Shown: positions 6,566-48,540 of the stretch, one piece after another
How the letters are laid out: every line of letters begins with the position of its first letter
How positions within the stretch are numbered: the stretch's first letter is position 1
Origin: Methanobacteriota archaeon
GTDB lineage: Archaea > Thermoplasmatota > E2 > DHVEG-1
Length of the DNA stretch: 64,000 nucleotides
Direction: 5' to 3'
Assembly: GCA_963769885.1 (NCBI GenBank)
Contig: CAVYNH010000007.1
Coordinates: forward strand, 160,001 to 224,000
Program-made: the position numbers and the translations under genes
The notes under the pieces: model-generated
The model's database searches: none
The model's input: only the letters and a program-made list of their open reading frames with translations
Told to the model about the DNA's origin: nothing

Positions 6566-6639
6566 GGCCCGAGTAGTGTAGCCTGGTAACATATGGGACT
6601 GTGGATCCTCTGTGCCGGGTTCAAATCCCGGCTCGGGCC
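6566..6639 (+). tRNA. tRNA-His(GTG) with encoded G-1
   Basis: GCCCGAG/CTCGGGC acceptor stem, CT-GTG-GA loop, GGTTCAAATCC. Confidence 0.95.
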
Positions 6640-6692
6640 TATTCAGCAATCCTTAAAAGCCCTTACACGCTTCCTCCTTAGCGTGATGCGAC

Positions 6693-7940
6693 GTGACAGA
6701 CCCGATCGATGAGCGGTTGAAGCGGGCCCGGGTCTATATTGAGAAGCTGAAGACGACCCGCGAAAACAAACGGCTCTTTTTTGATTTCTACAAACAACTC
6801 GCCGGTGGAGTAAAACCGCTCTCCCAGGTCCGCCAAGACAAATACCTCTACGCTTTTTCAACAATTGTTGAACTCCTGCCGATAGATTTTCGCCAGGTCA
6901 CGAAGAAAGACATCGAACGCTTCTGCATTGGTGTCAACACACTAACCACATCCAAAGGGAAGCGATACAGTGAATGGAGTCGGCGTGACCTAAAGATCAT
7001 CATCAAGCGGCTCGTAAAATTCATCAGGGAATCAGAAGGACAAGAGTTCGAGAAGCAACAGTATCCAAAAGAAGTCTCCTGCATCGAGATTAACATCGAC
7101 AGAAAAACCACGAACTACAAAAAGAAGCACCTTGACTGGGACGATATCGTGAAGATGGCCAGAGTCGCAAACAACCTTCGGGATAAGGCATTCGTGCAGT
7201 TCCTCTATGAGAGCGGGGCGAGAATCGGCGAAGTGTTAAGCGTTCAGATCAAGGATGTGACATTTAAACAGTCCTACGCGGAAGTCCAACTACCAGTGAG
7301 TAAAACAAAACCCCGTCCAGTGTACGTCAGCCGGAGCGCACCGGCTCTCAGCCAATGGCTTCACGAGCATCCGAAAGCAGGCGACCCTGAGGCTTTCCTG
7401 TTCTGCGGCCTGTGGTCCAAGAAGAAAGGCGACGGGATCAACTACCAGACGTTCCGATTCATGCTCCAGGGCCTCGCCACACGCGCTGGCGTCAAGAAAC
7501 CGGTGAACCCGCACCACTTTCGACATAGCAGGGCGACGGAGCTGGCGCACTCGCCGGATCTGACGAACGCCCAGCTCTGCCAGCTTATGGGTTGGGTTCA
7601 GGGAAGCCGGGAACTTAAAACATATATTAACGACGTTGACACCGAAAAAGCGATGCGGAAGATGTTTGGCATTGAGGATAAAGAAGAGGAGAAGAAACAA
7701 CAGAAGATCATCGTCTGTCCGCGCTGCGGCACTGAGAACAGTCCTGGGAGCGAGTTCTGTTTTAACTGCCGTCTGGGGCTGGATGATAACGCCGTCCTCA
7801 AGTATGAGGCTGCAAGTAAGGAGTTGCTAAAACAAACCGAGGACATCAAGACTCAGAACGATCTCGCTGAGGTCGTCGCGTCCCTGCAGGACGAGGTAAG
7901 GGAGTTGAAAGAACAAATCAGAAAAAAGAATCAGAAATAA
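6693..7940 (+). CDS. Tyrosine integrase with C-terminal zinc ribbon
   Basis: ESGARIGE, SKT, HHFRHS, MGW..TY catalytic pattern; CPRC..CFNC; adjacent to attL. Confidence 0.93.
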   Translation: MTDPIDERLKRARVYIEKLKTTRENKRLFFDFYKQLAGGVKPLSQVRQDKYLYAFSTIVELLPIDFRQVTKKDIERFCIGVNTLTTSKGKRYSEWSRRDLKIIIKRLVKFIRESEGQEFEKQQYPKEVSCIEINIDRKTTNYKKKHLDWDDIVKMARVANNLRDKAFVQFLYESGARIGEVLSVQIKDVTFKQSYAEVQLPVSKTKPRPVYVSRSAPALSQWLHEHPKAGDPEAFLFCGLWSKKKGDGINYQTFRFMLQGLATRAGVKKPVNPHHFRHSRATELAHSPDLTNAQLCQLMGWVQGSRELKTYINDVDTEKAMRKMFGIEDKEEEKKQQKIIVCPRCGTENSPGSEFCFNCRLGLDDNAVLKYEAASKELLKQTEDIKTQNDLAEVVASLQDEVRELKEQIRKKNQK

Positions 7941-8013
7941 CTACATATTACGTTATACATAATACGTTAAATATTTTTATAAACCAATAATTTATTCTAT
8001 TTTTGTGATTATC

Positions 8014-8187
8014 ATGGAAAACGAAATCGAAAAAGAAGGCCACTTAGAACCGCTTGATATCCTGAACTACCTTGACTATCTCTGCAATAAGAAGACAGTA
8101 GCGGAGTTACAGGCGGCGATACACAAGATCAAGGATGTCATCGAAGCAGACCGGGTCGGCCAAATGTGTGAAATCTTTCGACCATAA
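8014..8187 (+). CDS. Small hypothetical protein
   Basis: ORF after an AT-rich promoter-like stretch, followed by hairpin and poly-T. Confidence 0.55.
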   Translation: MENEIEKEGHLEPLDILNYLDYLCNKKTVAELQAAIHKIKDVIEADRVGQMCEIFRP

Positions 8188-8190
8188 ACC

Positions 8191-8217
8191 GGGGGAGACC
8201 AGCCCCCCTCTTTTTTT
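8191..8217 (+). terminator. Hairpin plus oligo-T terminator
   Basis: GGGGG-agaccag-CCCCC followed by CTC and T7. Confidence 0.6.
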
Positions 8218-8267
8218 ATTTCTATCTCGATTATTTATAATAAATCCTGGCGCGTTAATGTGTTCTC

Positions 8268-8370
8268 GAAGCGGGTGTGGCTATTCCCCGGCCCTTGAGA
8301 GGCCGCACGAGGGGCCGCCGTCACGCCTGGGGCAAACCCCGGCCCCCTTTGTACAAATGGGTTGTACATA
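8268..8370 (+). ncRNA. Candidate structured small RNA
   Basis: GC-rich multi-helix island in AT-rich DNA about 25 nt downstream of TTTATAATAAA. Confidence 0.3.
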
Positions 8371-8399
8371 GTACCTATAGAGGTCAATGATCCACTCTT

Positions 8400-9071
8400 C
8401 TATTTTTTTAAATAGCATTGAACAAACGCCATTTGAGGAGCCTCAAGGGATTCTTTCTTCTTAATAATTTTTTCAATTTCAAGCAACGACAGGAAAATCA
8501 ACTCTCGAAGATATTTAATTTTTTTATTGTCTTCCCCTCTATCCGTTCGCATCAGAGAGTTTCTTTCCTCTTTTGTCACCCCGTAAAAAACTTGATTAAA
8601 TTTAATCCCCTCTATTTCATCGTAAAAAGATTTAATCTCACTAAATTCGTATCTTTCTAAAATCTTTTTAACTATATATCGGGAGAGTTCTACCATTCCC
8701 TTTGAAGTGACATAATATTTTTTTCCTTTTTTGTGGACAAACCTTAGTCCTTTCTTGCTTTCACCCAATCGATGATTGAGATAATGATTTAGATGAGATC
8801 GATTGCCACTCTTAATTACGCCACAATACCGATTTTCACTTTTTTGATGAGTCTTAAAAAAATCTTCTATTTTTCTATAGTTATATGCCGTTTGAGGCTC
8901 GTTCTTAATTCGTTCCGGAGTCGCATATTCATCCATGAGAAGATAACGGAGATGCTTTGGTTCCAAACCATCATTAGGATTAACAGTGTAGCAAAGAGAC
9001 CAAATAATGCCTCTAACAATTTTATTATCAAAAACATCCCTGCTCGGTGCCTTTCTTTTCTTTTGTTTCAT
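8400..9071 (-). CDS. Putative winged-helix regulator (AT-rich)
   Basis: KKGKKYYVTSKG wing-like motif; divergent from RHH gene. Confidence 0.55.
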   Translation of the reverse strand: MKQKKRKAPSRDVFDNKIVRGIIWSLCYTVNPNDGLEPKHLRYLLMDEYATPERIKNEPQTAYNYRKIEDFFKTHQKSENRYCGVIKSGNRSHLNHYLNHRLGESKKGLRFVHKKGKKYYVTSKGMVELSRYIVKKILERYEFSEIKSFYDEIEGIKFNQVFYGVTKEERNSLMRTDRGEDNKKIKYLRELIFLSLLEIEKIIKKKESLEAPQMAFVQCYLKK

Positions 9072-9195
9072 TGAACCACTTCCTGTTTAAGGAGTAATAA
9101 TCAATTGTTTTCTCCTTTGTTGTAAAAGGTAATTCTATACTTATGACACAACTAATATATGCTGACCACTATTAACACTTGTGGCAGGTGTGTTT

Positions 9196-9417
9196 ATGCC
9201 AAAGAAAGAGATGACGAAAGGGCGCCTGTCCGTCTCTGTCGATAAAGAATTTATCCGAATCATCGACCAGACACGAGGAATCGCATCAAGAAGCGCGTTC
9301 TTGAACCAATTTTTCAGGCGGCATTTAACATTTCAAACTGCTGCCGAATTGATGAAACCGCTCCCCGTTGATGGGAAATTATCACCCCCAAAACGAACAA
9401 CGAAGGCGACTCAGTGA
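9196..9417 (+). CDS. Ribbon-helix-helix regulator
   Basis: RLSVSVDKEFIRIID..GIASRSAFLN pattern; GCAGGTG SD-like site. Confidence 0.7.
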   Translation: MPKKEMTKGRLSVSVDKEFIRIIDQTRGIASRSAFLNQFFRRHLTFQTAAELMKPLPVDGKLSPPKRTTKATQ

Positions 9418-9597: not shown

Positions 9598-10065
9598 GTG
9601 ACCCGGGTTTGTGTTGACTGCGGCAAGGACATCTCCGACCTGCCGAACAGAAGTATCCGATGCGCCCCTTGCCAACACCAATACACGCGGCAACACCGGA
9701 AACACTATCAGGCGCAACGGTACGACAAGCGACACCCCAGAGGCAAAGAACGCAGAAACAGACGCCGACAAACCATAGGCCATCAGAAACGCCTGAACCG
9801 GCTCGGCAGCGGCGGGTTTAATTCGTTACGCTACGCGATCCATTTTCTGGTCGATGACGACGGCAGGATCTATGACGAAGAAAGCCTCATCCGAAAATAC
9901 GCGCAGCTCAATGAAGACGAGGAGACCGTCGGGAGAATCATCACGGAGGACGGCATGGTCGTCGGGGAATGGAAAGGCGGCCTTCCGCTCACCATCGAGA
10001 CCGTCTTCAGTCTGACGTCAAACTATCGACATTGGCACTATTGGCGCGACCTTCTACGGGAGTAA
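9598..10065 (+). CDS. Zinc-finger protein
   Basis: CVDCG...CAPC followed by basic helix. Confidence 0.6.
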   Translation: MTRVCVDCGKDISDLPNRSIRCAPCQHQYTRQHRKHYQAQRYDKRHPRGKERRNRRRQTIGHQKRLNRLGSGGFNSLRYAIHFLVDDDGRIYDEESLIRKYAQLNEDEETVGRIITEDGMVVGEWKGGLPLTIETVFSLTSNYRHWHYWRDLLRE

Positions 10066-10110: not shown

Positions 10111-10437
10111 ATGGCTCAAACAGTAGAACAGCGGCTCAACGCCGCCTTCAAGGCAGCGATGGAATCTATCACCGTTAAGGATGCCCAACACCCGGTGTGG
10201 ATGACTTTACGAGTTGATGGCGGTGCCGCCAAGATCCTCACGACGGCTGCTGCGCGGCTCAATCTCACGCCGGACGAACTTTTGACTCGTATCATCCAGG
10301 AGTACGCTTCTTTTCGATATTTCGACTGCTACTTTAGGATAGACGAAAAAACACTCGGAGAGATCGCCAGCCAGAAACACATGATTATTACTTATCGGAA
10401 AGAGGTTCGTCTCATCGATGAAGACAAAGGTGCCTAA
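10111..10437 (+). CDS. Hypothetical protein, RHH-like segment
   Basis: MTLRVD..AAARLNLTPDELLTRII; GGAGG SD. Confidence 0.55.
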   Translation: MAQTVEQRLNAAFKAAMESITVKDAQHPVWMTLRVDGGAAKILTTAAARLNLTPDELLTRIIQEYASFRYFDCYFRIDEKTLGEIASQKHMIITYRKEVRLIDEDKGA

Positions 10438-10440
10438 AAA

Positions 10441-12300
10441 ATGACCGGAGAGAATCCCCCAAGCGCCTCAAAAAGCCATGTGTATCTCCAGGGCTCGCCG
10501 GCGCCCCCCGAGACCGCCCTGCAACTCCGCATCGACGTACGCGACGCCTTGAACACCCCCATCATCACCCTCGCCGCCAGCGACTTCGTCTTCAACCTCG
10601 GCGGAAAAACCGGGACGATCACATGGTCGAATTTCTATAACCAAGGCGACGGGAACTACACCTGGGATGCCACTGATACTGACGCCGAATCCGTCAACAT
10701 TACCACAACAATCGCGGACATCACCCTCGACGACGTCGTCACCGGCGTCTGGACCAACGAGGACAACACCTGGGACAAATACCAAGAATATGGGAAAATC
10801 GGCACAGAGATCGGCGTCGTCACCATCACGGACGCAGGAACCACCACCAGCCTCGACTGGTCCGGCTCCATGAAACTCATGAAGGCGATGGAAGGACTCT
10901 GGGCCACATTCACCTATCTCGATGAATCAAACCGCTATCTGATTCAATACGCCTACAGCCTCGACGAAGGCCTCACCTGGACCACCGGCAACGTCTGCTA
11001 CGATGTCGCCTACGACCAACGCTACCCCAGCATCGGCGTCGACCGCGCCCGCCTCGTGCATTTCGCCTGGACAGGGAAAAACAGCGGCAGCACATCCTAC
11101 ACACAAGCCCGCTACCGCAGCCTCAACATTTCAACGATGACCCTTGGAACCCTCTACAACGTCAGCAGCGAGACCAGCAACGTCATCTACGCCATCGCCG
11201 TCTGCGACCAGGACAACGGCGCCCACATCATCTGGATCGCCGCCAACATCCTGAAACATCAATACACCCTCAACCAGGGTGCTTCTTGGCTTGGAGTCAG
11301 CAGCATCACCGCGACGAACCCCATCGTCACCCCCACGCTCTACATCAGTCCGGACAACATCCTCCATCTCGCCTACGTCGACCCGACCGCCAAAGCCCTC
11401 TACTACGCCCGTAGCCTCGACCGCGGGGCGACCTGGAGCAGCCCCGTCTGCCTTTGCGCCACCACCTACATCCCCTACAACCCCTGCATCGGCATGGGCA
11501 ACGACGGCATCGCCTACCTCGTTTGGCAGCAGAGGATCAGCGCAGGAAACGCCTACCAGCAAATCCACCTGCGGATGAGTCTGGACAATGGCGTGACCTG
11601 GCAGACCGAGACGCAATGCAGCAGCCCGATCACCACGGACGCGAACTACGACCAGGAATACCCGACCATCGCCTGCGACCCGGCAATCAACGGCATGCAC
11701 CTCTTCTGGGACAGCAACAGCGCGGCCTACGGTGTTAAAAACATCAGACATGTCACCTACGACCATGGTCTCATCGGCTCCATGGAATGGGTCACGACCG
11801 GGACGGTGAACGACTGGACCCGACCGATCCCACTACGTCAACTCACGCCGTTCGAGGCACCATGGAACGGCTACGTCTTCCTCTGGCAATCCTGGACTAC
11901 CATAAAATTCTACTACAATGTGGACGACTGCTGGCTGCCGCCCGACGGCGACTACCTCCTTTACCCCACCAGCGACCGGACGCAGGCCGTCCCCGTCCCC
12001 TACCCCACCTCAGCGACCATCACCAGCACCGAAGAGATCAAACGCTGCTACTACACGGACAACACCAGCACCTCACGCGACGAAGGCAAAGAAGGCGACA
12101 CGATAACGTTGGGCGGCATCTTCTACGACGACGACCTCGTCGGCCTCCTCGAGGACCTCGAAGGCCAAGAGGTCGCAATCCTCGGCATGTCGGACAACAA
12201 TTTGGACGGCATCTATCTCATCTCAGATTTCCGCGTGCAGCGCGGACCCGGCAGCGAAGGCCAATGGCCCTATACATTGACTCTGGAGGCAGTCGAATGA
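10441..12300 (+). CDS. Putative tail-tip/adhesin: Ig-like, Asp-box propeller and GpU/Dit-like C-terminus
   Basis: GDGNYTW Ig-like motif; four Asp-box-like motifs (SLDEGLTW, TLNQGASW, SLDRGATW, SLDNGVTW); GDTITLGG..GIYLISDF..YTLTLE tail; directly upstream of TMP. Confidence 0.6.
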   Translation: MTGENPPSASKSHVYLQGSPAPPETALQLRIDVRDALNTPIITLAASDFVFNLGGKTGTITWSNFYNQGDGNYTWDATDTDAESVNITTTIADITLDDVVTGVWTNEDNTWDKYQEYGKIGTEIGVVTITDAGTTTSLDWSGSMKLMKAMEGLWATFTYLDESNRYLIQYAYSLDEGLTWTTGNVCYDVAYDQRYPSIGVDRARLVHFAWTGKNSGSTSYTQARYRSLNISTMTLGTLYNVSSETSNVIYAIAVCDQDNGAHIIWIAANILKHQYTLNQGASWLGVSSITATNPIVTPTLYISPDNILHLAYVDPTAKALYYARSLDRGATWSSPVCLCATTYIPYNPCIGMGNDGIAYLVWQQRISAGNAYQQIHLRMSLDNGVTWQTETQCSSPITTDANYDQEYPTIACDPAINGMHLFWDSNSAAYGVKNIRHVTYDHGLIGSMEWVTTGTVNDWTRPIPLRQLTPFEAPWNGYVFLWQSWTTIKFYYNVDDCWLPPDGDYLLYPTSDRTQAVPVPYPTSATITSTEEIKRCYYTDNTSTSRDEGKEGDTITLGGIFYDDDLVGLLEDLEGQEVAILGMSDNNLDGIYLISDFRVQRGPGSEGQWPYTLTLEAVE

Positions 12301-14772: not shown

Positions 14773-15026
14773 TAATGCCTCACATTGAACAGGGCAGAGC
14801 CGTGGCGGGTACCCCCTCAACACCCGCCGACTCACCCCAATCACAAAACCGGACTGCGGGCGCACCACCATCAGCGCCCGCAGTTCCACCTCCTTCTCAA
14901 ACCAAGCAAACATATTTCATCTGCTTTAGAGGCGTGACTGGGGACGAAGCCAGAACACTCCTCCGCAACATCCGCCAGAATGCCAAGATCTTCCACATCA
15001 CGGTACGCAGGAGCGCGGACCAATGA
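14769..15026 (+). CDS. Small Pro-rich hypothetical protein
   Basis: AAGGAG SD; ATGA overlaps on both sides. Confidence 0.55.
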   Translation: MIMPHIEQGRAVAGTPSTPADSPQSQNRTAGAPPSAPAVPPPSQTKQTYFICFRGVTGDEARTLLRNIRQNAKIFHITVRRSADQ

Positions 15027-19462: not shown

Positions 19463-19481
19463 CAAATCCCGGCTCGGGCCT
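19463..19481. repeat. attR of element 1
   Basis: Exact copy of 6622-6640. Confidence 0.92.
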
Positions 19482-40080: not shown

Positions 40081-40155
40081 GGGCCTGTAGGGTAGCTTGG
40101 TCCATCCTTTTAGCTTTGGGAGCTAGAGACTCCAGTTCAAATCTGGACAGGCCCA
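40081..40155 (+). tRNA. tRNA-Pro(TGG)
   Basis: GGGCCTG/CAGGCCC acceptor stem, TT-TGG-GA loop, GTTCAAATC; TTTTTAAAT box upstream. Confidence 0.95.
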
Positions 40156-41256: not shown

Positions 41257-41421
41257 GAGTTCCCCGGGTGGGGGTAATGTCGGGTCCAGTAGAGAGTGGC
41301 CTATCTGTCCTAAATTCTCGCAACTTTTTACACCTCCTCGCAGGTCAAACGATCTGCAAGGGTGTGAATCCTTTGAATCTATTTTAGGGTTTTCGTCGCT
41401 GGGTTTCAATTCTTCTGTACC

Positions 41422-43689
41422 TCACCCTGCTCTGAATCGTGATTTCGTTGTCACCGGCGGCTGTATGATCGTCGTCGATGTCGGCGTCCTGCCCGTCCGA
41501 GTCGTGACCTGTGTGCCTGGGACGAGGATGTGCGCGCCGGTCTTCCGGCTGATCACGTCCTGACTGGCACCGTTCGTGACTGAGAGGACACCGTTGGCGA
41601 TGCTGGCACCGAGACGTTTGCCCCAGTCCTCGACGCTCTGGCCATGCTCAAGCGTCGCATGAACATCTATTGAGACAGCGCAATTTATCACCCCAGACGG
41701 GCCGCCCTGGGCCACACCCGCTGGGACGACGTATTCGCCTTTGTGGACGATAGCGGCCCCCGTCTCTAGGATGCTGCCGCCTTCCTGAAGCCACGGCACC
41801 CGACCGAATAACCGGTCGGTGATCGGCGTCGACGTGCCGCCTACCGCGCTGACGCCTCCTACGTCCTGCCCGGTGAGCTCCAGCCATTCCCGGTACTTGT
41901 CGATGCTCGCCTGGACTGCTTTCACGTTGTCAACGCCGTACCATTTCAGCCACGCTTGAGCACCCTCAGAGCCGGGGAAGGCGGCCATAGTGGCCTCTAT
42001 CACGCTGATCTGCTGGGTTGTGGCGTCCTTTATCCTGGTGTTGAGCGCGGTGATGCTGTCGCCGTAGGCAGTCATAAGGAGTCCCTCGTGCTGGATACTC
42101 AAATCGAGCGACGAGATCTCCTGTTCGTAGGTGAACGCCCTGGTCTGCTGGGTGATATCCTGGGTTAGTCCGGTGCGTTCGAGCTCGGCCTGCATCTCCT
42201 GGATGCGCAGGCCGAGGTCCTGGTGTTGAAGCTCCTTGAGTTGAGCCTGTTGGTCTCGGTTGAGGCCATGCCGGGTGTCCGCGTTGTACTGCAGTTGCAT
42301 TTCCGCGATGCTGTTCTTAGTGAGTGCCATGCCTAGCGTGTTGATCGCGTCGTCCAGGACCCACGTCTGCTTCGTCTGGTCCTCAAGGCTCTTCAGGAAG
42401 TCGAGGCGGCCTTGGTCCTGGCTCATCTGTTGATTCAAGAGGGCCTGTTGCGAGGTGAGTTGCGGGTAGAGGTCGACGAGGTTCTGGATCTCGGTCCCGA
42501 GGTCCTTGGCGGCTCCCGCCATGTATTGGATCGGTTCGAGGCTCTGCGCGCTGGCGACGGCGGCTATCGCTTCTTTGATGCTGCCGCCGGCGAACAGGTT
42601 GATCGCGGGGAGGGTCGCTATCGTCTGGATGATCCGCGCGGGAAGGTCCAGCCAGCTGCCCATCGTTCGATATCCTGCCTCCCGTTGCTGTGTTTGTTTC
42701 TGGGTGACGAGGTCGGCGGTGTTCAGGTAATCCTTGTACTGCTGCAGAATCTCTTTTCCAGTCAACTTCGAGGTGTCGATGCCGCCGCCCGCTAGGATCG
42801 CCATGCCGGCCGCATAGCTCTGTACGCCTCCGACGAGGCTTTGGAATGCGCTGGCGTTCCCCGCGGTCGCCGTCTGAATCCTGTTAAGGATGCCTTCGAC
42901 GCCCATCGCCTTCAATACGAGACTGTCGTAGGCGATGCCCAAAGAGTTCATGGTCGCAACCTGGTCTTTCGACGGGCTGCTGAGGTTGCTGAGGACTTCC
43001 GTGAGCCCGCTGAACGCGCTCCTGGCTGGAAGGCCTTTCTCGGCCATGTCGCTGACCGCCGAGACCACCTGGTCGAGGCTCATGCCTGCCGCCTGCGCGA
43101 AAGGAGCAAGCCTTTGAATTTCGGTGCCCAGATCGGCCATAGAGATGTTTGTCGTCTGGTACGCCTGGGTGAGCAATTGGCCGACGTAGGCCGACGCGCT
43201 CGCGCTCAGGCTGAAGGCGTCCATCACGTCCGCCAGGGTTTTCGCGGCTGTCGTCTGATCCGTGAACGTCCTAAGGGAGAGCATCATGGACTCGGTGAGG
43301 AGCGTCATACTGTCCTGGATTCGGAACCCTGACTTCTCGATCTCCGTGAATGAGTCGGCGAGCTCCTGGATGCTTTTCCCGCCGCCGATGCTCAGGTTCT
43401 GGAGTTCTTTCTGAAGGTCTGGGAGGAGCGTCTTCTCCTGGTCGGTCAGGATGCTGCTTATCTTGAGCATCTCGGTCGAATAGCTGCGGTAGGATTGGAT
43501 GCTGTCCTCGATGCCCTGCGTCATGCTGTGGACGCCCTGCATGAGGTAGCCGATAGCCATATTCATGGCACTAAAGGCCGCGCCCATCGCCAAGCCTTGG
43601 ACTGAGAAGGCCTTGAATCTCTGTGCCGCTTGGTCCAGGACGCTGCTCATCTGGTCCCTGGCTTTTAAGTCCACACTGATCTCGGTCAT
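41422..43689 (-). CDS. Tail tape measure protein (TP901-like)
   Basis: SVDLKARD start, LAPFAQAAGMSLDQ core, coiled coil, GGSILETGAAIVHKGEYVVP. Confidence 0.87.
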   Translation of the reverse strand: MTEISVDLKARDQMSSVLDQAAQRFKAFSVQGLAMGAAFSAMNMAIGYLMQGVHSMTQGIEDSIQSYRSYSTEMLKISSILTDQEKTLLPDLQKELQNLSIGGGKSIQELADSFTEIEKSGFRIQDSMTLLTESMMLSLRTFTDQTTAAKTLADVMDAFSLSASASAYVGQLLTQAYQTTNISMADLGTEIQRLAPFAQAAGMSLDQVVSAVSDMAEKGLPARSAFSGLTEVLSNLSSPSKDQVATMNSLGIAYDSLVLKAMGVEGILNRIQTATAGNASAFQSLVGGVQSYAAGMAILAGGGIDTSKLTGKEILQQYKDYLNTADLVTQKQTQQREAGYRTMGSWLDLPARIIQTIATLPAINLFAGGSIKEAIAAVASAQSLEPIQYMAGAAKDLGTEIQNLVDLYPQLTSQQALLNQQMSQDQGRLDFLKSLEDQTKQTWVLDDAINTLGMALTKNSIAEMQLQYNADTRHGLNRDQQAQLKELQHQDLGLRIQEMQAELERTGLTQDITQQTRAFTYEQEISSLDLSIQHEGLLMTAYGDSITALNTRIKDATTQQISVIEATMAAFPGSEGAQAWLKWYGVDNVKAVQASIDKYREWLELTGQDVGGVSAVGGTSTPITDRLFGRVPWLQEGGSILETGAAIVHKGEYVVPAGVAQGGPSGVINCAVSIDVHATLEHGQSVEDWGKRLGASIANGVLSVTNGASQDVISRKTGAHILVPGTQVTTRTGRTPTSTTIIQPPVTTKSRFRAG

Positions 43690-43916
43690 GGCTCGTCTTC
43701 TTCCTCGCCGATGCTCACGTCCTCGTCGGTGATGAGCGTGTAGTCCTCAGGCTGAAAAACAATGGTGGCGAGGCCGACGCCGCCGAGGAGACACTCGACC
43801 TTCTCCCTGGTGACGGCAGGATCGAGATCATGCAAGGCGTTGTAGACCCTGGTCGCGTCAACCGGCGTCCGCACGTCGATCAGGACGCGTTCCACGAGAC
43901 CGCAAGGCTGGCTCAT
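43686..43916 (-). CDS. Small acidic-tailed hypothetical protein
   Basis: ATGA overlaps with both neighbours. Confidence 0.6.
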   Translation of the reverse strand: MSQPCGLVERVLIDVRTPVDATRVYNALHDLDPAVTREKVECLLGGVGLATIVFQPEDYTLITDEDVSIGEEEDEP

Positions 43917-44572
43917 GCCACGGCTCCCTGGTCTTCCGTCTTCGAGTCAAGACCATGCTCCCGTTTTATCTGCTTTCGGAACTCTTCGCGGCTCATTTTC
44001 AGAGGCGTCGGCTGTGTGGTCTTTACCACGGGCGACCCCGCGCCAGGGGAGGACATCTGCCTTCTGAACTCGAAGGGGTCGCCTTTGTGGACGAACACGT
44101 CGCTGACGAACAGGTCTTCCGCAGCCATGTAAGAAGCGACATTGGGTTTCTTCCTGCCGTCCCGGATTTCGATGTTATGAAGCCGTAGAATCTGGCTGAT
44201 GCCTCGTACCCTCTCATTGGGCCGCATGTTTGTTGCGGTGAGAAGGCCCTTATTCGATATCCTGATTAAGGCTATCGCAAAACGCTCGGTGACGTCGCCT
44301 TCAAGGCAGCTTTTCTGAAGGTCGTCCCAGTATTGTTTTTCGACTATGTTGCGGGCTTGACCGACCTCAAACGCCTCTTTATCCCGTTTGGCTCGGAGGG
44401 CTTCTTTTTCCTCGGCGAGCCGTTTGAGTTCAGCGGCGGTGAGTTGGCTGGCGAGTTTCGTCTTCGTCTGGTCCCATTGCAACGCCGCGAGCTCTTCCGG
44501 GGTCTGATAGCCGCTCTCGGCCTGCTCTCTTCGTTCCTGTTCGATTCGTGCTTGTTGTTCTTTCTCATCCAT
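43913..44572 (-). CDS. Hypothetical protein with N-terminal coiled coil
   Basis: AGGAG SD; packed in operon. Confidence 0.7.
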   Translation of the reverse strand: MDEKEQQARIEQERREQAESGYQTPEELAALQWDQTKTKLASQLTAAELKRLAEEKEALRAKRDKEAFEVGQARNIVEKQYWDDLQKSCLEGDVTERFAIALIRISNKGLLTATNMRPNERVRGISQILRLHNIEIRDGRKKPNVASYMAAEDLFVSDVFVHKGDPFEFRRQMSSPGAGSPVVKTTQPTPLKMSREEFRKQIKREHGLDSKTEDQGAVA

Positions 44573-44579: not shown

Positions 44580-45077
44580 TCAACTCCTGATATTCCTCTT
44601 CTGTGTTGTCGCGGTAGTGATGGGTCGCAGGTCGTCCCTCATGGTTTCACCTGGACCCGTATATGAACTCTGACTGACTCTGTGACCGAGATACGGATCG
44701 TCGTCGGTGTCCTGGGAGTCCCGTGGCACGGTCCACCAGACCGTCCCATCCCGGGCGATGTCCACCCGCATGTAGCCCTTCACGTTTGATGAGCCGATGA
44801 TTGCGTTGTAGATCACGTCTGTGAGCGTGCGGCCTTCCGCATGGGACTCGAAGTGTTGGCCGCACGAGGGACACTGCCGGGGGATGCTCTGAATCCGGTG
44901 GATCTTCTGACATTTCAAACACATGATAACAAACGGCACGCCTCGCTTGACGACAGGTTGTTTTATCTCGATGAAATCCCGTAGGACACCGCAACGCGGG
45001 CAGTACCGCCGTGTGATGGGCTTGCGGGTCACGTAGATGGTCTCGCATTCCAAGCATTGCATCTTGATTTTAGGCAT
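44580..45077 (-). CDS. Double zinc-ribbon protein
   Basis: CLEC..CPRC and CLKC..CPSC; GGAGGAGG SD before ATG 45077. Confidence 0.72.
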   Translation of the reverse strand: MPKIKMQCLECETIYVTRKPITRRYCPRCGVLRDFIEIKQPVVKRGVPFVIMCLKCQKIHRIQSIPRQCPSCGQHFESHAEGRTLTDVIYNAIIGSSNVKGYMRVDIARDGTVWWTVPRDSQDTDDDPYLGHRVSQSSYTGPGETMRDDLRPITTATTQKRNIRS

Positions 45078-45600
45078 GGTCCTCCTCCTCGTCGCCGTCG
45101 CCCGTGTACGGCACAAGGTCGTCTATATCTTCGTCCACGGGCGATTCCTGGGCACGTGGGGGCGTCATCGGCGTGCTGGTGGCCATCTTTCGCACCTCTC
45201 GCTGTTGATCGAGATCATGCAAGGCGTCAATCATAGCGTTGAATTCCGCAATGGTGGGTTTCTTGCGACATAAGACACAAGAGTCAGGTTCGGAAATCTT
45301 CACCTGTTCATGCCGTCCGAACTCAGTAGGATACTTGCGCTCCAGCAGCCATGCGCTTGCTTGCCATGAGCCGTTGTTGCTCGCCCTGGTGATGAGCGCG
45401 ATATGCCGTCTCTTGAACTCAGCTTCTCCTTTTCGCGTAGCGTTCACTAATTCCGCAAAAAGGCTGTCGGTGTTGTTGTCTGCATCGCTTGTGCCGATTC
45501 GCATCCAGTCGTAAAACGCGGTCTTCCCAACGCCCAAAAGCGCGCAGATGTCTTTCTTATTCGTCCCTTTTTTGACTTCCCGGTAGATCGTCGTTATCAT
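45070..45600 (-). CDS. Terminase small subunit-like HTH protein (may start at ACG 45639)
   Basis: ICALLGVGKTAFYDW HTH; WQASAWLLERKYPTEFGR motif of the kind seen in phage genes preceding terL. Confidence 0.65.
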   Translation of the reverse strand: MITTIYREVKKGTNKKDICALLGVGKTAFYDWMRIGTSDADNNTDSLFAELVNATRKGEAEFKRRHIALITRASNNGSWQASAWLLERKYPTEFGRHEQVKISEPDSCVLCRKKPTIAEFNAMIDALHDLDQQREVRKMATSTPMTPPRAQESPVDEDIDDLVPYTGDGDEEEDHA

Positions 45601-45631: not shown

Positions 45632-45886
45632 TTAGCCGTAGCTGACCACGCTCCCCTGGAGTCGTTCCGTCATGGTGTCAACCTTGCTCGTGAGAAGCCT
45701 GTTCTGCCGCGCGAGGTCACAGAGTTCGTTCACTTGCTTCGCTACTAGTTCGTTCTTCATTTTGAGGAGCTCCCGGAGGCTTGCGATCTCATGCTCAAGG
45801 GCATCGATCCGGATGAACTGAAACTCCGTTTTCCGTAGGATTAACATTCCGTGTCCTCTAACTTCGACCCGTGGGCGTGTTTCCAC
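45632..45886 (-). CDS. Small coiled-coil protein
   Basis: Heptad pattern RIDALEHEIASLRELL; start uncertain. Confidence 0.5.
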   Translation of the reverse strand: METRPRVEVRGHGMLILRKTEFQFIRIDALEHEIASLRELLKMKNELVAKQVNELCDLARQNRLLTSKVDTMTERLQGSVVSYG

Positions 45887-45940
45887 TTGCGGATAAAACC
45901 AGGTTCAAACTCCGGGTCCATCTCGCTGGGCATCATTTCG

Positions 45941-46879
45941 TTAGGTCCTCGCCTCGGCTGACGCCTGGGTTTGGCGTCGTTTGAGCATGGCTTCGGTGGC
46001 GTTCATCCAATCTTGGAGTCGTTTCGCCTCTTGTTTTTCCCGTTGTTCGCGGATTTCTATTATATAAGAAGTCTCGTTGTGGTCTTGGTGTTGTTGTCGG
46101 ATTTTGTCTCGGAGTATCTTGGAGAAGCGGATGAATATCTTGTAGAATCGTCCTTCGAGGTTGTGGAGGGCGTCCCATTGTTGTTTGAGGATGCCGTGGA
46201 GGTTGTGAGACTGCCTCTTGCCTCGTATCCAGTTGAATCCTTCTTTGGTCTTTTCGAGGAGTCTGGCGCGTCGTACTTCGAGGAGGCGGTAGAGGGTATG
46301 GAAGATGGCTGCTCGGATTTCGCTGGGGTCTCGTCGGCGGCGTTTGCTGACGTTGACGACGTTGATGGTGAAGATCTGGTGGTGCCGGGCTAGGGTGTTG
46401 AGTTCGAGGGGCGTGGTCTTCCCTTTGAGTTTCCCGGCGAGGAAGATGGTCATTGATGGTTTTTTGCCGGTGCGGTCGATGGGTGCTTTGTTGTTGTGGG
46501 TTTGCCCTGCTGTGAGTCCGGCGATGGTCCGGAGGTCTTCGCCGTAGTAGTAGGGTGTGGTGGCGAAGGCGACGAGGTGGTAGTGAAGGACGTTGTGTTC
46601 AGAGAAGGTCGGGAATTTGATCCATCGGACGGTGAGCGGCTGGTCGTCGTCGAGGTTTGCGGTGAAGATGCCGGTGAGTTCGTCGTCGTTGTATTGGCGG
46701 ACACCGATGATGCCTTCTGCCTCATGGTTCTGTTTTTTGACGACGTCTACGAGGCTTTCTTGGACGATGTCGAAGTGGTGTGCGTGAAGGCGGTTCTCTC
46801 GGTTGATGACGGTCTGCAGCTCCTGCCCGTAACTTTTATATCTTTGATTGTGTTTTATTTCTTGCAAAGTAGCTAGCAC
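45941..46879 (-). CDS. Hypothetical protein, possible HUH replication initiator
   Basis: 312-aa ORF with C/A-rich coding bias; LHYHLVAF motif; function speculative. Confidence 0.5.
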   Translation of the reverse strand: MLATLQEIKHNQRYKSYGQELQTVINRENRLHAHHFDIVQESLVDVVKKQNHEAEGIIGVRQYNDDELTGIFTANLDDDQPLTVRWIKFPTFSEHNVLHYHLVAFATTPYYYGEDLRTIAGLTAGQTHNNKAPIDRTGKKPSMTIFLAGKLKGKTTPLELNTLARHHQIFTINVVNVSKRRRRDPSEIRAAIFHTLYRLLEVRRARLLEKTKEGFNWIRGKRQSHNLHGILKQQWDALHNLEGRFYKIFIRFSKILRDKIRQQHQDHNETSYIIEIREQREKQEAKRLQDWMNATEAMLKRRQTQASAEART

Positions 46880-47020: not shown

Positions 47021-47161
47021 TTATTGTTCGGGCGGCTCGAATTTTATGTGGATGCTTTCGTTCGGGTTTTCCCGAAGGTAGGACATGATCCCAGAACCCA
47101 CGATCCGCCTGCGGATCTCCTTGATTCGTTTCTTGTCTGCCTCAGATAGATTTTCAGTCAT
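47021..47161 (-). CDS. 46-aa hypothetical protein (not in track)
   Basis: MTENLSEADKKRIKEIRRRIVGSG...; AAGGAG SD; overlaps upstream ORF. Confidence 0.45.
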   Translation of the reverse strand: MTENLSEADKKRIKEIRRRIVGSGIMSYLRENPNESIHIKFEPPEQ

Positions 47162-47330
47162 TGTTTTTTTTCTCCTTTGATAGTTTATACTCTATGATTT
47201 TTTTAGCTAGAAATTCCCGGTCGGCTACCAGGGACAACAGGTAGTCGTGCCAAGTCTGCGTTTTGCAGTCTTTGGCTCGCTCCAGCCTTCGGAATTCAGC
47301 GTCGGTGAAGGTTTCATTTAAGTTCCTCAT
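47154..47330 (-). CDS. 58-aa RHH-like protein (not in track)
   Basis: MRNLNETFTDAEFRRLERAK..TWHDYLLSLV; GAGGT SD. Confidence 0.6.
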   Translation of the reverse strand: MRNLNETFTDAEFRRLERAKDCKTQTWHDYLLSLVADREFLAKKIIEYKLSKEKKNND

Positions 47331-47771
47331 TTTTTTTACCTCGCTACCTTAGCTACCTTAGTCTCTACCTCATAGTAGCAAACTGTATTTTTCCGGACGT
47401 TTTTCTTTATATACTGTCCAGAAGAAAAAGCAAGGGAAATTAAAAAAAGGGGGGCCTAGCGTGTGCGGCGGCAGTCGCCGTCGAGGTGCACGCGTCGGCC
47501 TTCGATGAGTTGGTAACTGTTTGGGTCGATGGGGCCGCCGCATTTTGGGCAGCGTTTGTTCCGTGGGCGGCTCTGTCGTCTTGTGCTGGGGTTGTAGACG
47601 CCCACGATTAGCACCCCGGTTGTGTGCTGATCTCGCGGGGTTCCGTGCCCATGCTGACGTCGCCGACCGTGATATTGAGCCGGGTGCAGCCGAGGGCCTC
47701 CAGGGCCGCCTGGACGGCGTCCAGGGCACTGAGTTCGTCGCCTGGGACCAGGCCGGTGACGCGTAGGCTGT

Positions 47772-48137
47772 TCATTCGACCTCTCGGATCTCGACCGGCG
47801 TGACGATGAGGCGGCTGCCGACGATCTTGACGCTGCAGTAATCGGTCGGATGCCCTGCCGCGAGGACTTTTTCCTCGAGGGTCTGCAGCCAGTTCTGCTT
47901 GAGGACCTCGTCGATGTCATCCCAAGCGACTATCTGCGTGGGCTCGAAGTCGAGCTCGCCGGTGATCGTGACCGTCCCCTCGTTCCCATCGCCTATGGTT
48001 TCCCGCATGGGTGGTACCTGCGTCGGCATTTTGGGCATTCGACTGGGTTCGGGCTTCTCGGCCACCACTGATGCTTGCAGTGGGGGCATTCTTCCATCAA
48101 TGATTTTCTTTTTGCCATTCACTATATCACCGGGCAT
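47772..48137 (-). CDS. Hypothetical protein
   Basis: First ORF after divergent AT-rich promoter region. Confidence 0.55.
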   Translation of the reverse strand: MPGDIVNGKKKIIDGRMPPLQASVVAEKPEPSRMPKMPTQVPPMRETIGDGNEGTVTITGELDFEPTQIVAWDDIDEVLKQNWLQTLEEKVLAAGHPTDYCSVKIVGSRLIVTPVEIREVE

Positions 48138-48159
48138 ATGTATGACACATCAGTATTTA

Positions 48160-48205
48160 ATTATTACGTGTAAATTACGTAATACGTAATATTAAAAACG
48201 TAATC
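48160..48205. promoter_or_regulatory. Operator-like repeat array in divergent promoter
   Basis: ATTACGT, palindrome ATTACGTAAT (48174-48183), ATACGTAAT, ACGTAAT. Confidence 0.55.
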
Positions 48206-48223
48206 AGGGTTTCTCCCTATGGG

Positions 48224-48376
48224 ATGCCAAGACCATCGAAAAAGAAGAAGCCGGAGCCGGTGATGACGATCACGATGCCGCCGGAAATCAGGGAAAAGCT
48301 ACGTCGGATAGCGAAGAAAGAGAAAAGGAGCAAAAGTTCGATGATTCATTACCTCATCGAGCATTACCAAGAATAG
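48224..48376 (+). CDS. 50-aa Arc/CopG-like RHH regulator (not in track)
   Basis: MTITMPPEIREKLRRIAKKEKRSKSSMIHYLIE. Confidence 0.78.
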   Translation: MPRPSKKKKPEPVMTITMPPEIREKLRRIAKKEKRSKSSMIHYLIEHYQE

Positions 48377-48528
48377 AAAAAGAGAGGAGACGTCCCCGCC
48401 TGGATGCCATGGGCAGGGACGCCCCCCATGTTTTAGTGAGGAAGAGAACTGACAACCCTATTTTTTGGAGACTACGTGTTTTTTCTGCAGGTGTCTCCGA
48501 TTTCCTCTCCTGTTGACCAGACCACCTT

Positions 48529-48540
48529 TGGACAGGCCCA
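48529..48540. repeat. attR of element 2
   Basis: Copy of tRNA-Pro 3' 12 bp. Confidence 0.75.

What the first reader, a model, noticed from the sequence alone, without database searches (positions are those of the whole stretch)
6622..48540. Two capsid-less tRNA-integrated elements each carry a tape measure protein plus terminase genes: candidate family of archaeal tail-remodelling satellites
Seen: element 1 (6622-19481) and element 2 (40144-48540) both have matching att repeats, open integrase frames, RHH regulators, a TerS-like gene and a 734/755-aa tape measure protein (TMP). I recognise no capsid, portal, head protease or tail-tube gene in either, and there is no unassigned ORF of portal size. 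Integrases, target tRNAs, gene order and replication genes differ. Known: bacterial PICIs are of this size, carry int + pri/rep + terS and hijack a helper phage; cf-PICIs encode capsids but no tails; Vibrio PLEs have been reported to supply tail components. Inference: these are satellites of an archaeal tailed virus that redirect packaging and substitute their own TMP, either building chimeric tails or disrupting helper tail assembly. Two independent decays leaving the same odd gene set seem less likely. I know of no such system described in archaea.
Basis: partly seen in the sequence, partly recalled or inferred. Interest (0 to 1): 0.92.

Follow-up and report, generated by a model that had tools for sequence, protein, structure and literature searches.

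The report
Two capsid-less archaeal elements carrying tape-measure genes
Two small mobile elements inserted in tRNA genes of an archaeon each carry a full-length viral tail tape-measure gene and DNA-packaging genes but no recognisable capsid, so they may be the first archaeal counterparts of bacterial phage satellites that build chimeric tails, although broken-down proviruses are not excluded.

Summary
The observation largely holds. E1 (6641-19481, tRNA-His, 19-nt att) and E2 (40156-48540, tRNA-Pro, 12-nt att) are discrete insertions in an archaeal chromosome. A same-genus genome lacks both. A metagenome contig joins 40143 directly to 48529, which is an empty site for E2.

Each element has an intact tyrosine integrase, a full-length PF10145 tape measure protein (TMP; the two are collinear at 24-25% identity) and terminase genes. 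E2 has TerS. E1 has TerL plus an upstream TerS-position gene.

No capsid, portal or tube gene was found. Its last 100 residues match a tail protein encoded two genes after the TMP in complete viruses.

Where context could be seen, relatives of these TMPs lie in full structural modules (33-36 kb contigs and proviruses). I found no sibling small elements, so a "family" is not shown.

Dense gene packing, non-viral gene order and intact genes favour satellite-like elements (about 0.45) over provirus remnants (about 0.3). TMP-carrying satellites are already published for bacteria (Vibrio PLEs, EPIPs). I found none reported for archaeal tailed viruses.

The parts
6566..6640 (+). tRNA-His(GTG), integration target of E1; its last 19 nt form attL
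   Evidence: ARAGORN; repeat
6622..6640 (+). E1 attL, 19-nt exact direct repeat
   Evidence: 2 copies in the window; 0 of 100 shuffles reached 2
6693..7940 (+). E1 tyrosine integrase (415 aa) with a C-terminal zinc ribbon
   Evidence: PF00589 2e-21
8005..8187 (+). E1 60-aa ORF with a weak homologue in the complete virus contig L026
   Evidence: tblastn 43% over 42 aa, 2e-4
8400..9071 (-). E1 223-aa ORFan on the opposite strand, low G+C; possible cargo or regulator
   Evidence: No hit in Pfam, PHROGs, PADLOC or PDB; G+C 0.40
9181..9417 (+). E1 78-aa ORF, RHH-like by eye only
   Evidence: No Pfam hit; inference from the sequence
9598..10065 (+). E1 155-aa Cys-rich (zinc-ribbon-like) protein
   Evidence: Sequence; weak phrog_4852 hit at 0.0024
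10111..10437 (+). E1 108-aa ORF of unknown function
   Evidence: no hits
10441..12300 (+). E1 619-aa tail-associated protein. It combines a sialidase-type beta-propeller with a C-terminal ~100-aa domain shared with a conserved protein encoded two genes downstream of the TMP in complete viruses. It is a candidate receptor-binding or tail-tip protein, not a portal.
   Evidence: 3 Asp-boxes; homologues carry PF15892/PF13088; AF2 residues 250-400 have pLDDT 68-88; Foldseek top hits are glycoside hydrolase and sialidase propellers, best 8e-9; C-terminal residues 522-616 match the L026 444-aa protein at 30% identity, 3e-9
12331..14535 (+). E1 tape measure protein, 734 aa, full length
   Evidence: PF10145 1.2e-13; 11 PHROG TMP families; aligns over residues 4-696 with the TMP of L113
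14566..15026 (+). E1 68-aa and 85-aa ORFs linking the TMP to the replication gene through 4-nt overlaps
15023..16810 (+). E1 D5-type primase-helicase (595 aa)
   Evidence: PF19263 1.1e-14, PF08706 1.1e-11, PF03288 7.8e-5
17195..17740 (+). E1 181-aa protein in the TerS position (overlaps the TerL start by 23 nt)
   Evidence: Position; phrog_15023, unknown function, 8.3e-6
17718..18977 (+). E1 large terminase TerL (419 aa), full length
   Evidence: PF04466, PF03237, PF17288; 38-41% identity over residues 13-409 to the TerL of provirus G034:C22
18904..19338 (+). E1 144-aa coiled-coil ORF, last gene before attR
19463..19481 (+). E1 attR
40081..40156 (+). tRNA-Pro(TGG), integration target of E2
40144..40155 (+). 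E2 attL, 12-nt exact core, inside the 3' end of the integrase ORF
   Evidence: joint 40143->48529
40123..41409 (-). E2 tyrosine integrase (428 aa); its stop codon lies inside the tRNA gene
   Evidence: PF00589 1.3e-7
41422..43689 (-). E2 tape measure protein, 755 aa, full length
   Evidence: PF10145 1.3e-23; 18 PHROG TMP-annotated families among 19 hits; full-length relatives such as P0013 over residues 2-755
43686..43916 (-). E2 76-aa gene overlapping the TMP start; candidate tail assembly chaperone
   Evidence: 52% identity over 31 aa (2.6e-5) to the C-terminal half of the 140-aa ORF upstream of the closest TMP2 relative in L115 (a 66-aa ORF lies between it and that TMP)
43913..44572 (-). 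E2 219-aa ORFan with a charged helical N-terminus
   Evidence: No hits
44580..45116 (-). E2 178-aa double zinc-ribbon protein
   Evidence: Sub-threshold zinc-ribbon Pfam hits
45070..45600 (-). E2 small terminase TerS (176 aa)
   Evidence: phrog_4102 4.6e-24
45632..45886 (-). E2 84-aa coiled-coil ORF
45941..46879 (-). E2 312-aa ORFan; the only capsid-sized unassigned ORF in E2; possibly a replication protein (HYH motif). Fold unresolved.
   Evidence: The only hit among 5.8 billion clusters is itself; AF2 pLDDT 43; Atlas and PDB gave nothing usable
47021..47775 (-). E2 four small ORFs (46, 58, ~50-aa zinc ribbon, 55 aa)
47772..48137 (-). E2 121-aa ORF, first gene of the long leftward operon
48224..48376 (+). 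E2 RHH (CopG/Arc-type) regulator, divergent from the operon; TACGTA repeats lie in the spacer
   Evidence: PF07878 32.6 bits, cut-off 26; repeat at 48176-48191
48529..48540 (+). E2 attR

Best explanation
E1 (12.8 kb, tRNA-His) and E2 (8.4 kb, tRNA-Pro) are two unrelated integrative mobile elements of an archaeon. They behave like PICI/PLE-type satellites of head-tailed archaeal viruses.

SHOWN. Each is a discrete att-bounded insertion with an intact tyrosine integrase. E2 has a confirmed RHH regulator. E1 has its own D5-type primase-helicase. E2 has TerS; E1 has TerL plus a TerS-position gene. Each has a full-length TMP from a family that otherwise sits in complete structural modules of tailed viruses. 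Each also has one tail accessory. In E2 it is a small gene homologous to the chaperone-position gene of a related virus. In E1 it is a sialidase-like propeller carrying the C-terminal domain of a conserved tail-tip protein. No capsid, portal or tube gene is detectable.

INFERRED. On infection by a helper tailed virus, the element excises and replicates. Its terminase subunit(s) direct its own DNA into helper-made capsids. Its TMP, together with the chaperone or tail-tip protein, is built into otherwise helper-encoded tails. This would give chimeric tails as demonstrated for Vibrio PLEs, and in E1 possibly an altered receptor specificity.
For: 1. Discrete insertion. A Logan contig of run X2 joins 40143 to 48529, skipping 8385 nt exactly at the 12-nt repeat. 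Its right flank of 972 nt has 16 differences.
2. Absent from a close relative. The same-genus genome G001 is syntenic on both sides of both elements. It has the same tRNAs with host genes beside them, and none of the 27 element proteins hit it.
3. Intact genes. Both TMPs align end to end with family members. E1 TerL aligns over residues 13-409 of 419.
4. Compact organisation. Coding fraction is 0.90 (E1) and 0.93 (E2). New junctions are tight: E2 TerS|178 aa -8 nt, 219|76 -4, 76|TMP -4, TMP|int 12 nt; E1 68|85 -4, 85|D5 -4.
5. Gene order cannot come from the canonical order by deletion alone. The canonical order TerL-portal-MCP-...-TMP-179-444-...-int is seen in L107 and L026. E1 reads int-regulators-619-TMP-primase-TerS-TerL.
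6. No head or tube genes. Of 16 L026 structural-module proteins, 12 hit L112. Only the TMP and the ~100-aa C-terminal domain hit E1, and only the TMP hit E2. Pfam and PHROGs give no capsid, portal or tube hit.
7. The portal-sized ORF is a sialidase-type propeller.
8. Precedent. PLEs encode TMP, TAC and baseplate hub and assemble chimeric tails (PMC12987554). EPIP satellites carry TerS and a TMP (PMC12822802).
Against: 1. No sibling element of either architecture was found. The A2 profile hit 5 of 401 genomes of the phylum (G000 included), and the contexts I examined (L107, L108) are full modules. IMG/VR, metagenome and genome-contig scans gave only full-module or very short contexts.
2. No selection test was possible, because there are no close DNA relatives.
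3. No helper was found. The own genome (92% complete) has no other TerL, no PF05065 or PF04860 match, and no match to the L107 portal or MCP.
4. There is no evidence of excision, circular forms, packaging or expression.
5. The empty-site joint rests on one contig in one run, with only 27 nt on its short side; the tool flags that as weak.
6. Capsid folds are not excluded for the ORFans. The E2 312-aa model was unusable (pLDDT 43), and the 219-aa and 223-aa ORFs were not folded.
7. The E1 'TerS' is positional only.
8. A comparable archaeal element with only TerS-TerL (NitKor-E1) was judged a likely relic by its authors.
Confidence: 0.45

Rival explanations
1. Both are defective remnants of integrated head-tailed proviruses. 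They lost head, connector, tube and lysis genes by deletion and rearrangement. The integrase and att sites may still allow excision, but the TMP and terminase genes are leftovers without a current function.
For: The TMP family lies in complete viruses wherever context was visible. L026 has MCP, minor tail protein, TMP and integrase. L112 is collinear with it. L107 has TerL, portal, MCP and TMP. E1 TerL is 38-41% identical to the TerL of the complete provirus L107. No sibling small elements were found. No helper is present in the genome. NitKor-E1 is a precedent read as a relic. TMP is a long gene and is therefore often represented in remnants (general knowledge).
Against: No truncated or frame-broken structural gene was seen. 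Both TMPs and the TerL are full length. Coding density is 0.90-0.93, with overlapping start and stop codons at junctions that do not exist in the complete viruses. The E1 order needs rearrangement, not only deletion. Two unrelated elements retain the same functional subset. A strain whose flank differs at 16 of 972 aligned positions (about 98% identity) lacks E2 precisely at att, which leaves little time for multi-step decay after integration.
Confidence: 0.3
2. They are integrative plasmid-like elements that captured viral genes as defence cargo. The TMP (and the TerS/TerL) would act as decoys that poison tail assembly or packaging of infecting tailed viruses, protecting the host. The element itself would not be packaged.
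For: Each element has its own integrase and regulator, E1 has a replication gene, and neither has head genes. Tail assembly is a known target of element-encoded defences: Tai systems (PMC11364771, abstract from the search listing only) and PLE11 Rta.
Against: 0 of 10 unassigned proteins match PADLOC. An intact TerL with nuclease-domain matches, plus a TerS, is more than a decoy needs. A full-length TMP together with a chaperone-like or tail-tip-like partner suggests productive assembly.
Confidence: 0.12
3. They are complete, very small viruses whose capsid (and portal) genes are too divergent to recognise.
For: Several ORFans remain unresolved (E2 312, 219 and 121 aa; E1 223, 155, 108 and 144 aa). 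The single-sequence AF2 model of the 312-aa ORF failed.
Against: E1 has no unassigned ORF above 223 aa apart from the propeller protein. E2 lacks TerL, and neither element has a portal candidate. MCPs of the related viruses are recognisable by PHROGs and by tblastn among themselves but not in E1 or E2. A genome of 8-13 kb cannot hold a head-tail morphogenesis module, which takes about 15 kb in L107 and L026.
Confidence: 0.03

Closest known systems
Vibrio cholerae PLEs (PLE11, PLE1, PLE4), satellites of phage ICP1 that assemble chimeric tails (PMC12987554, Nature 2026; passages read)
   Same: Small integrated element without capsid genes that encodes its own TMP plus tail accessories (TAC, baseplate hub) and takes the rest of the virion from a helper. 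E2 has a TMP plus a chaperone-position gene. E1 has a TMP plus a tail-tip-domain protein.
   Different: PLEs are bacterial and specific to a myovirus. They do not integrate in tRNA genes, and they are shown experimentally to package and transduce. No sequence relationship was tested or is expected. E1 and E2 carry terminase subunits (E1 even TerL), and nothing about a helper or particles is known. The gene maps of Extended Data Fig. 10 (tmp in PLE-like elements and some cf-PICIs) could not be seen; only the legend was read.
EPIPs, satellites of Mycolicibacterium aichiense prophage HerbertWM (PMC12822802, bioRxiv Dec 2025; passages read)
   Same: Satellites that carry TerS, an integrase and a TMP and that lack most tail genes and holins.
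   Different: EPIPs are bacterial, use a serine integrase, and also list scaffold, MCP and head-tail adaptor genes. Particles were imaged. No homology was tested.
PICIs and P4-like satellites (features recalled from general knowledge; de Sousa et al. 2023 seen only as a citation)
   Same: Size of 8-13 kb, integrase at one end next to att, divergent regulator, D5/P4-alpha-type primase-helicase (E1), TerS for redirecting packaging, no capsid genes.
   Different: Classical PICIs carry no TMP and no TerL. They are bacterial. Their regulators and interference genes (AlpA, Ppi/Rpp, Sid/Psu) were not looked for here.
NitKor-E1 of Ca. Nitrosopumilus koreensis (PMC6563490; passages read)
   Same: Archaeal integrated element with a tyrosine integrase and TerS-TerL but no other head-tail virus genes.
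   Different: It has no TMP or tail gene. Its authors classed it as a cryptic integrated element and likely relic. It belongs to another phylum.
Archaeal satellites described so far: pSSVx/pSSVi, SRCEs and NMV2S (10.1101/2025.02.15.638363 and 10.64898/2026.08.12.739948; passages read)
   Same: Archaeal elements proposed to depend on a helper virus for particles. NMV2S is linked to a siphovirus-like Asgard virus.
   Different: These are plasmid-derived circles of 2.7-9 kb. Most parasitise spindle-shaped viruses. None is reported with terminase or TMP genes or with tRNA integration.

Membership tests
Tape measure protein (Pfam PF10145 PhageMin_Tail) | Score above the Pfam gathering cut-off and overall TMP architecture | tested here: met
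   E1 scores 51.9 bits and E2 84.4 bits against a cut-off of 33.2. PHROG TMP families match. Both are full-length and collinear with 700-830-aa relatives.
Complete head-tailed (Caudoviricetes) provirus | HK97-fold major capsid protein | tested here: not met
   No Pfam or PHROG capsid hit. The L026 MCP hits L112 but not E1 or E2. The fold of the E2 312-aa ORF is unresolved, so exclusion is incomplete.
Complete head-tailed (Caudoviricetes) provirus | Portal protein | tested here: not met
   No hit in either element. The L107 portal and PF04860 find nothing in the whole genome. The only portal-sized ORF is a beta-propeller.
Complete head-tailed (Caudoviricetes) provirus | Large terminase | tested here: met
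   Met in E1 only (PF04466, PF03237). E2 has none. The genome holds one match in all.
Phage satellite, PICI-like | Small (about 8-15 kb) att-bounded island with an integrase | tested here: met
Phage satellite, PICI-like | Own replication initiator (primase-helicase or Rep) | tested here: inconclusive
   E1 has D5_N plus DUF5906 plus Pox_D5. The E2 312-aa ORFan is unassigned.
Phage satellite, PICI-like | Packaging-redirection gene (TerS or equivalent) | tested here: met
   E2 matches phrog_4102 at 4.6e-24. E1 has TerL plus a gene in the TerS position.
Phage satellite, PICI-like | Induction, packaging and transfer dependent on a helper virus | not testable with these tools
   No helper was found in the genome. 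Only Logan contigs of 4 runs were available.
PLE-type chimeric-tail satellite | Element-encoded TMP with chaperone and/or baseplate partner | tested here: inconclusive
   The TMP is clear. The E2 76-aa link to a chaperone-position gene rests on 31 aa. The C-terminal domain of the E1 619-aa protein matches a post-TMP tail protein at 3e-9.
PLE-type chimeric-tail satellite | Incorporation of the element TMP into helper tails | not testable with these tools
   Needs purified particles.
Defective provirus remnant | Truncated or frame-disrupted viral genes and loose, deletion-scarred organisation | tested here: not met
   TMPs and TerL are full length. Coding fraction is 0.90 and 0.93 with overlapping junctions.

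The most novel reading that the evidence does not exclude
E1 and E2 are the first satellites of archaeal head-tailed viruses. They arose independently and have converged on the strategy recently shown for Vibrio PLEs: steal the capsid and most of the tail, but bring your own tape measure protein. In E1 the element also brings its own sialidase-like tail-tip or receptor-binding protein and a complete terminase. The satellite would then control both what is packaged and how, or into which cells, the particle injects. That would make TMP substitution a cross-domain hallmark of tail-hijacking satellites.
Probability: 0.4. Interest if true: 0.8.

Novelty: new variant of a known kind. Interest (0 to 1): 0.62.

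Why it matters
Satellites of tailed viruses are well studied in bacteria. In archaea, the papers I could read report only satellites of spindle-shaped viruses plus one small putative Asgard element. If E1 and E2 are helper-dependent, PICI/PLE-like parasitism of head-tailed viruses extends to archaea. It would also mean that carrying one's own TMP evolved repeatedly; in bacteria this was shown experimentally only in 2026. E1 would add a satellite-borne TerL and a glycan-binding tail protein, which hints at satellite-determined host range. If they are remnants, they are an ordinary by-product of provirus decay and matter mainly for annotation: virus-finding tools would miss or mislabel such loci.

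Tried and rejected
SIBLING ELEMENTS
I went on with the sub-alignments A3 and A4.
- A4 found nothing in genome contigs and one weak locus in IMG/VR.
- A3 in genome contigs gave 29 loci, all titled as bacteria, and 27 of the 29 matched only the N-terminal domain.
- Single-protein IMG/VR scans with E1 TerL, E2 TerS, TMP2 and TMP1 found nothing.
- The search for homologous proteins gave only 5 hits for TMP2, only itself for the E2 312-aa ORF, and 3 weak BNR proteins for the E1 619-aa ORF.

FOLDS
- The AF2 model of the E2 312-aa ORF (single sequence, pLDDT 42.9) was too poor to search, so I did not send it to fold search.
- The Atlas gave no usable hit for the 619-aa or the 312-aa ORF.
- PDB sequence searches of the 312-, 219-, 223- and 181-aa ORFs gave nothing below E = 0.4.
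- The idea that the HYHLVAF motif in the 312-aa ORF is an HUH Rep motif could not be tested and stays a guess.

OTHER NEGATIVE OR UNINFORMATIVE RESULTS
- PADLOC matched 0 of 10 unassigned proteins.
- The sigma-70 promoter and terminator scan of E1 was no better than shuffles and does not suit archaea.
- Tandem repeats showed no iteron array.
- Flank-gene searches with the 732-aa and 843-aa neighbours of E2 hit large paralogue families and were useless as anchors. Synteny came from the 218-aa gene and a whole-window tblastn.
- Sequencing runs: no RNA holder was listed. The best holder has 0.16 of the sampled words. Large parts of E2 have no cover in any run.
- The X1 loose end after 40155 probably comes from the tRNA-Pro of another organism; I did not interpret it.

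The genomic contexts of most TMP relatives (P0006-P0036) therefore remain unseen.
- Supplements of papers were closed. The gene maps of Extended Data Fig. 10 of PMC12987554 and the supplementary tables of the archaeal satellite preprints may bear on the novelty claim.
- The statement that nothing of this kind is in print for archaeal tailed viruses rests only.

Full report
WHAT IS THERE

The window is G000:C7:160001-224000 of a 2.09-Mb, 7-contig genome that is 92% complete. The chromosome is archaeal. Between the two elements lie genes for Hef nuclease (NF010337, 941 bits, cut-off 610), aIF-2 (TIGR00491, 712 bits, cut-off 555) and archaeal Pus10 (TIGR01213, 451 bits, cut-off 200). I could not verify the phylum.

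ARAGORN finds tRNA-His at 6566-6640 and tRNA-Pro at 40081-40156.

BOUNDARIES

The last 19 nt of tRNA-His recur exactly at 19463-19481. That is 2 matches in the window even with 2 mismatches allowed, and none of 100 shuffles reached it.

For E2 only 12 nt are exact (40144-40155 and 48529-48540), with imperfect similarity around them. Two independent results show that both regions are insertions.

- Synteny with a close relative. The same-genus genome G001 (contig C15) is collinear, in reverse, with window 49-4830, 20716-37456 and 48603-56438. It carries the same tRNA-Leu/tRNA-His pair and the same tRNA-Pro. None of the 27 element proteins hit these 40 kb at E 0.01. Beside the G001 tRNAs lie ordinary secreted-protein genes: M28 peptidase, PKD and PQQ-propeller proteins, and a 663-aa surface protein. 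There is therefore no provirus at the homologous tRNAs.
- An empty site for E2. When four public runs were laid on 39600-49500, one contig of run X2 (1591 nt, depth 24) joined 40143 directly to 48529. It skips 8385 nt, and the 12-nt core fits either side. The contig continues for 972 nt of right flank with 16 differences. This is an empty site in a closely related strain. The caveat is that it is one contig in one run with only 27 nt on its short side.

GENE CONTENT

E1 reads left to right on the + strand:
- a tyrosine integrase (PF00589, 2e-21);
- a 60-aa ORF;
- a 223-aa low-G+C ORFan on the other strand;
- three small ORFs (78 aa, RHH-like by eye only; 155 aa, Cys-rich; 108 aa);
- a 619-aa protein;
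- the 734-aa TMP (PF10145, 1.2e-13);
- two small ORFs;
- a D5-type primase-helicase (PF19263, PF08706, PF03288);
- a 181-aa gene overlapping the start of a full TerL (PF04466 8.8e-21, PF03237 1.5e-15);
- a 144-aa ORF.

E2 on the - strand reads:
- an RHH regulator, divergent and on the + strand (48224-48376; PF07878, 32.6 bits, cut-off 26);
- a 121-aa ORF and four small ORFs;
- a 312-aa ORFan and an 84-aa ORF;
- TerS (phrog_4102, 4.6e-24);
- a 178-aa zinc-ribbon protein, a 219-aa ORFan and a 76-aa ORF;
- the 755-aa TMP (PF10145, 1.3e-23);
- the integrase (PF00589, 1.3e-7), whose stop codon lies inside the tRNA.

The two integrases are unrelated, and so are the two TerS-position proteins. The two TMPs are homologous at both ends: 24% identity over residues 1-238, and 25% over 482-723 of TMP1 against 457-703 of TMP2.

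IS A HEAD GENE HIDDEN?

No capsid, portal, protease or tube family matched in Pfam or PHROGs.

It has three strict Asp-boxes; only 3 of 2000 shuffles have even one. Its few homologues carry BNR families PF15892 and PF13088. An AF2 model is all-beta between residues 150 and 495, with pLDDT 68-88 over residues 250-400 (mean pLDDT 50). Its best Foldseek matches are glycoside-hydrolase and sialidase propellers (best 8e-9 in PDB; none of the listed top matches is a portal or capsid).

Its last ~100 residues match the C-terminus of a 444-aa protein encoded two genes after the TMP in the complete virus contig L026 (30% identity, 3e-9). That protein is conserved in L112, L027 and L028. The 619-aa protein is therefore best read as a tail-tip or receptor-binding protein.

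In E2 the only capsid-sized ORF (312 aa) has no relative among 5.8 billion clusters, and its single-sequence model is unusable (pLDDT 43). Its fold is open.

A direct comparison helps here. Of 16 proteins of the L026 structural module, 12 are found in L112 by tblastn. E1 matches only the TMP and the C-terminal domain, and E2 matches only the TMP.

WHERE DO THE TMPs COME FROM?

An exhaustive HMMER search found 31 representative clusters at E 1e-30 or better. Many are 700-830 aa long and collinear from residue 1.

Context could be seen for a few of them:
- L026, an IMG/VR contig of 36.4 kb, has an MCP, a minor tail protein, two small genes in the chaperone position, a 755-aa TMP, 179-aa and 444-aa genes, and an integrase.
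- L112, a metagenome contig of 33.7 kb that holds the closest visible relative of TMP1 (34% identity), is collinear with L026.
- L107, a provirus in a genome of the same family as the host, has TerL (38-41% identical to E1 TerL), a portal (phrog_146, 2.7e-28), an MCP, a minor tail protein and a TMP.
- L115 (2.9 kb) holds the closest relative of TMP2 (39% over 290 aa). In the chaperone position, upstream of that TMP (a 66-aa ORF lies between them), it has a 140-aa gene whose C-terminal half matches the E2 76-aa protein (52% over 31 aa, 2.6e-5).

The element TMPs therefore belong to a genuine tail-module family. The family is rare in genomes of the phylum: 5 of 401 with the A2 profile, G000 included. 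E1-like TerL occurs in 4 of 197 genomes of the class. The same full-length architecture also occurs in two bacterial MAG loci (L129, L137).

SATELLITE OR REMNANT?

For an evolved, helper-dependent element:
- All recognisable genes are full length.
- Coding fraction is 0.90 (E1) and 0.93 (E2).
- Junctions that do not exist in the complete viruses are tight or overlapping. In E2 they are TerS|178 aa -8 nt, 219|76 -4, 76|TMP -4 and TMP|integrase 12 nt. In E1 the TMP is chained to the primase-helicase through two ORFs with 4-nt overlaps.
- The E1 order (integrase, regulators, tail-tip protein, TMP, primase, TerS, TerL) cannot be derived from TerL-portal-head-tail-TMP-tail tip-integrase by deletions alone.
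- Two unrelated backbones carry the same functional subset.
- A strain whose flank is about 98% identical lacks E2 precisely at att.

Against:
- Each element is a singleton. I found no sibling of the reduced architecture anywhere I could look, so neither a family nor purifying selection is shown.
- The genome has no second TerL, no portal and no capsid match, so no resident helper.
- Nothing shows excision, packaging or expression.
- Fold-level exclusion of capsids is incomplete.
- The thaumarchaeal element NitKor-E1 (TerS-TerL plus integrase only) was read by its authors as a probable relic.

I put the satellite reading at about 0.45, remnants at about 0.30, a non-packaged decoy or defence island at about 0.12, and an unrecognised complete virus at about 0.03.

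MECHANISM (INFERRED)

A helper head-tailed virus supplies procapsids, connectors, tube and most of the tail. The element excises with its integrase and replicates (E1 through its D5-type primase-helicase). Its TerS, or TerS-TerL in E1, directs element DNA into helper capsids. Its TMP, assisted by the 76-aa chaperone-like protein (E2) or accompanied by the propeller tail-tip protein (E1), replaces the helper's TMP in the tail.

The element TMPs (734 and 755 aa) are about as long as those of the complete viruses (755-827 aa). Substitution is therefore more likely than a change of tail length. Possible benefits include escape from a TMP-targeting block, as with Rta in PLE11, or control of channel formation and host recognition.

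COMPARISON WITH WHAT IS KNOWN

They encode TMP, TAC and a baseplate hub and build chimeric tails. The same paper notes putative tmp genes in PLE-like elements and some cf-PICIs (PMC12987554, passages read; the figure itself was not seen).

EPIP satellites of Mycolicibacterium carry TerS and a TMP (PMC12822802, passages).

For archaea, a 2025 preprint states that only pSSVi and pSSVx had been described, and adds satellites of spindle-shaped viruses. A 2026 preprint proposes a 3.8-kb satellite of an Asgard siphovirus without such genes.

Three full-text searches found no report of an integrase-bearing, terminase- and TMP-carrying satellite of archaeal tailed viruses.

I therefore rate this as a new variant of a known kind: potentially the first archaeal example, but supported so far only by the anatomy of two singletons.

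Noticed in passing
window 19932-20456 (+): An IS200-type Y1 transposase (PF01797, 2.5e-11) lies about 450 nt to the right of E1 attR. G001 has no counterpart at that place.
   Followed up: partly
window 5026-6225 (-): A low-G+C (0.36) M14 zinc carboxypeptidase gene lies next to tRNA-Leu. It has a 79%-identical paralogue on contig C6 of the same genome and no syntenic counterpart in G001, so it may be a recent acquisition or duplication.
   Followed up: partly
window 48603-51134 (-) and 37562-39760 (-): The genes flanking E2 belong to very large paralogue families of secreted C25-peptidase/PKD proteins. They give 59-128 matches per related genome, which makes them useless as synteny anchors.
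   Followed up: no
window 40123-40156: The E2 integrase ORF ends inside the tRNA-Pro gene, and the att core lies within its last codons. Excision would therefore change the C-terminus of the integrase. This recalls, in mild form, archaeal integrases whose attP lies inside the int gene.
   Followed up: no
window 48176-48191 and 7942-7969: TACGTA-containing repeats sit in the divergent spacer between the E2 RHH gene and its operon. A 14-nt tandem repeat (2 copies) sits directly after the E1 integrase stop. Both are candidate operator or recombination-directionality sites.
   Followed up: no
L026 14162-14527: The complete virus contig L026 encodes the ~100-aa C-terminal domain of its 444-aa tail protein a second time, as a stand-alone 121-aa gene. 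That copy also matches the C-terminus of the E1 619-aa protein (7e-9).
   Followed up: partly
L129 and L137 (bacterial MAG contigs): The full-length architecture of this roughly 750-aa TMP family (matches over residues 64-740 and 2-748) also occurs in a Deltaproteobacteria MAG and an unclassified bacterial MAG. The family is therefore not restricted to archaea.
   Followed up: no
L026, L107, L108, L112: A ~300-aa protein matching phrog_290 ('minor tail protein') is conserved upstream of the TMP in all four complete modules. A ~206-aa protein is conserved too. Together they define a coherent group of archaeal-type tailed viruses with a compact structural module.
   Followed up: partly
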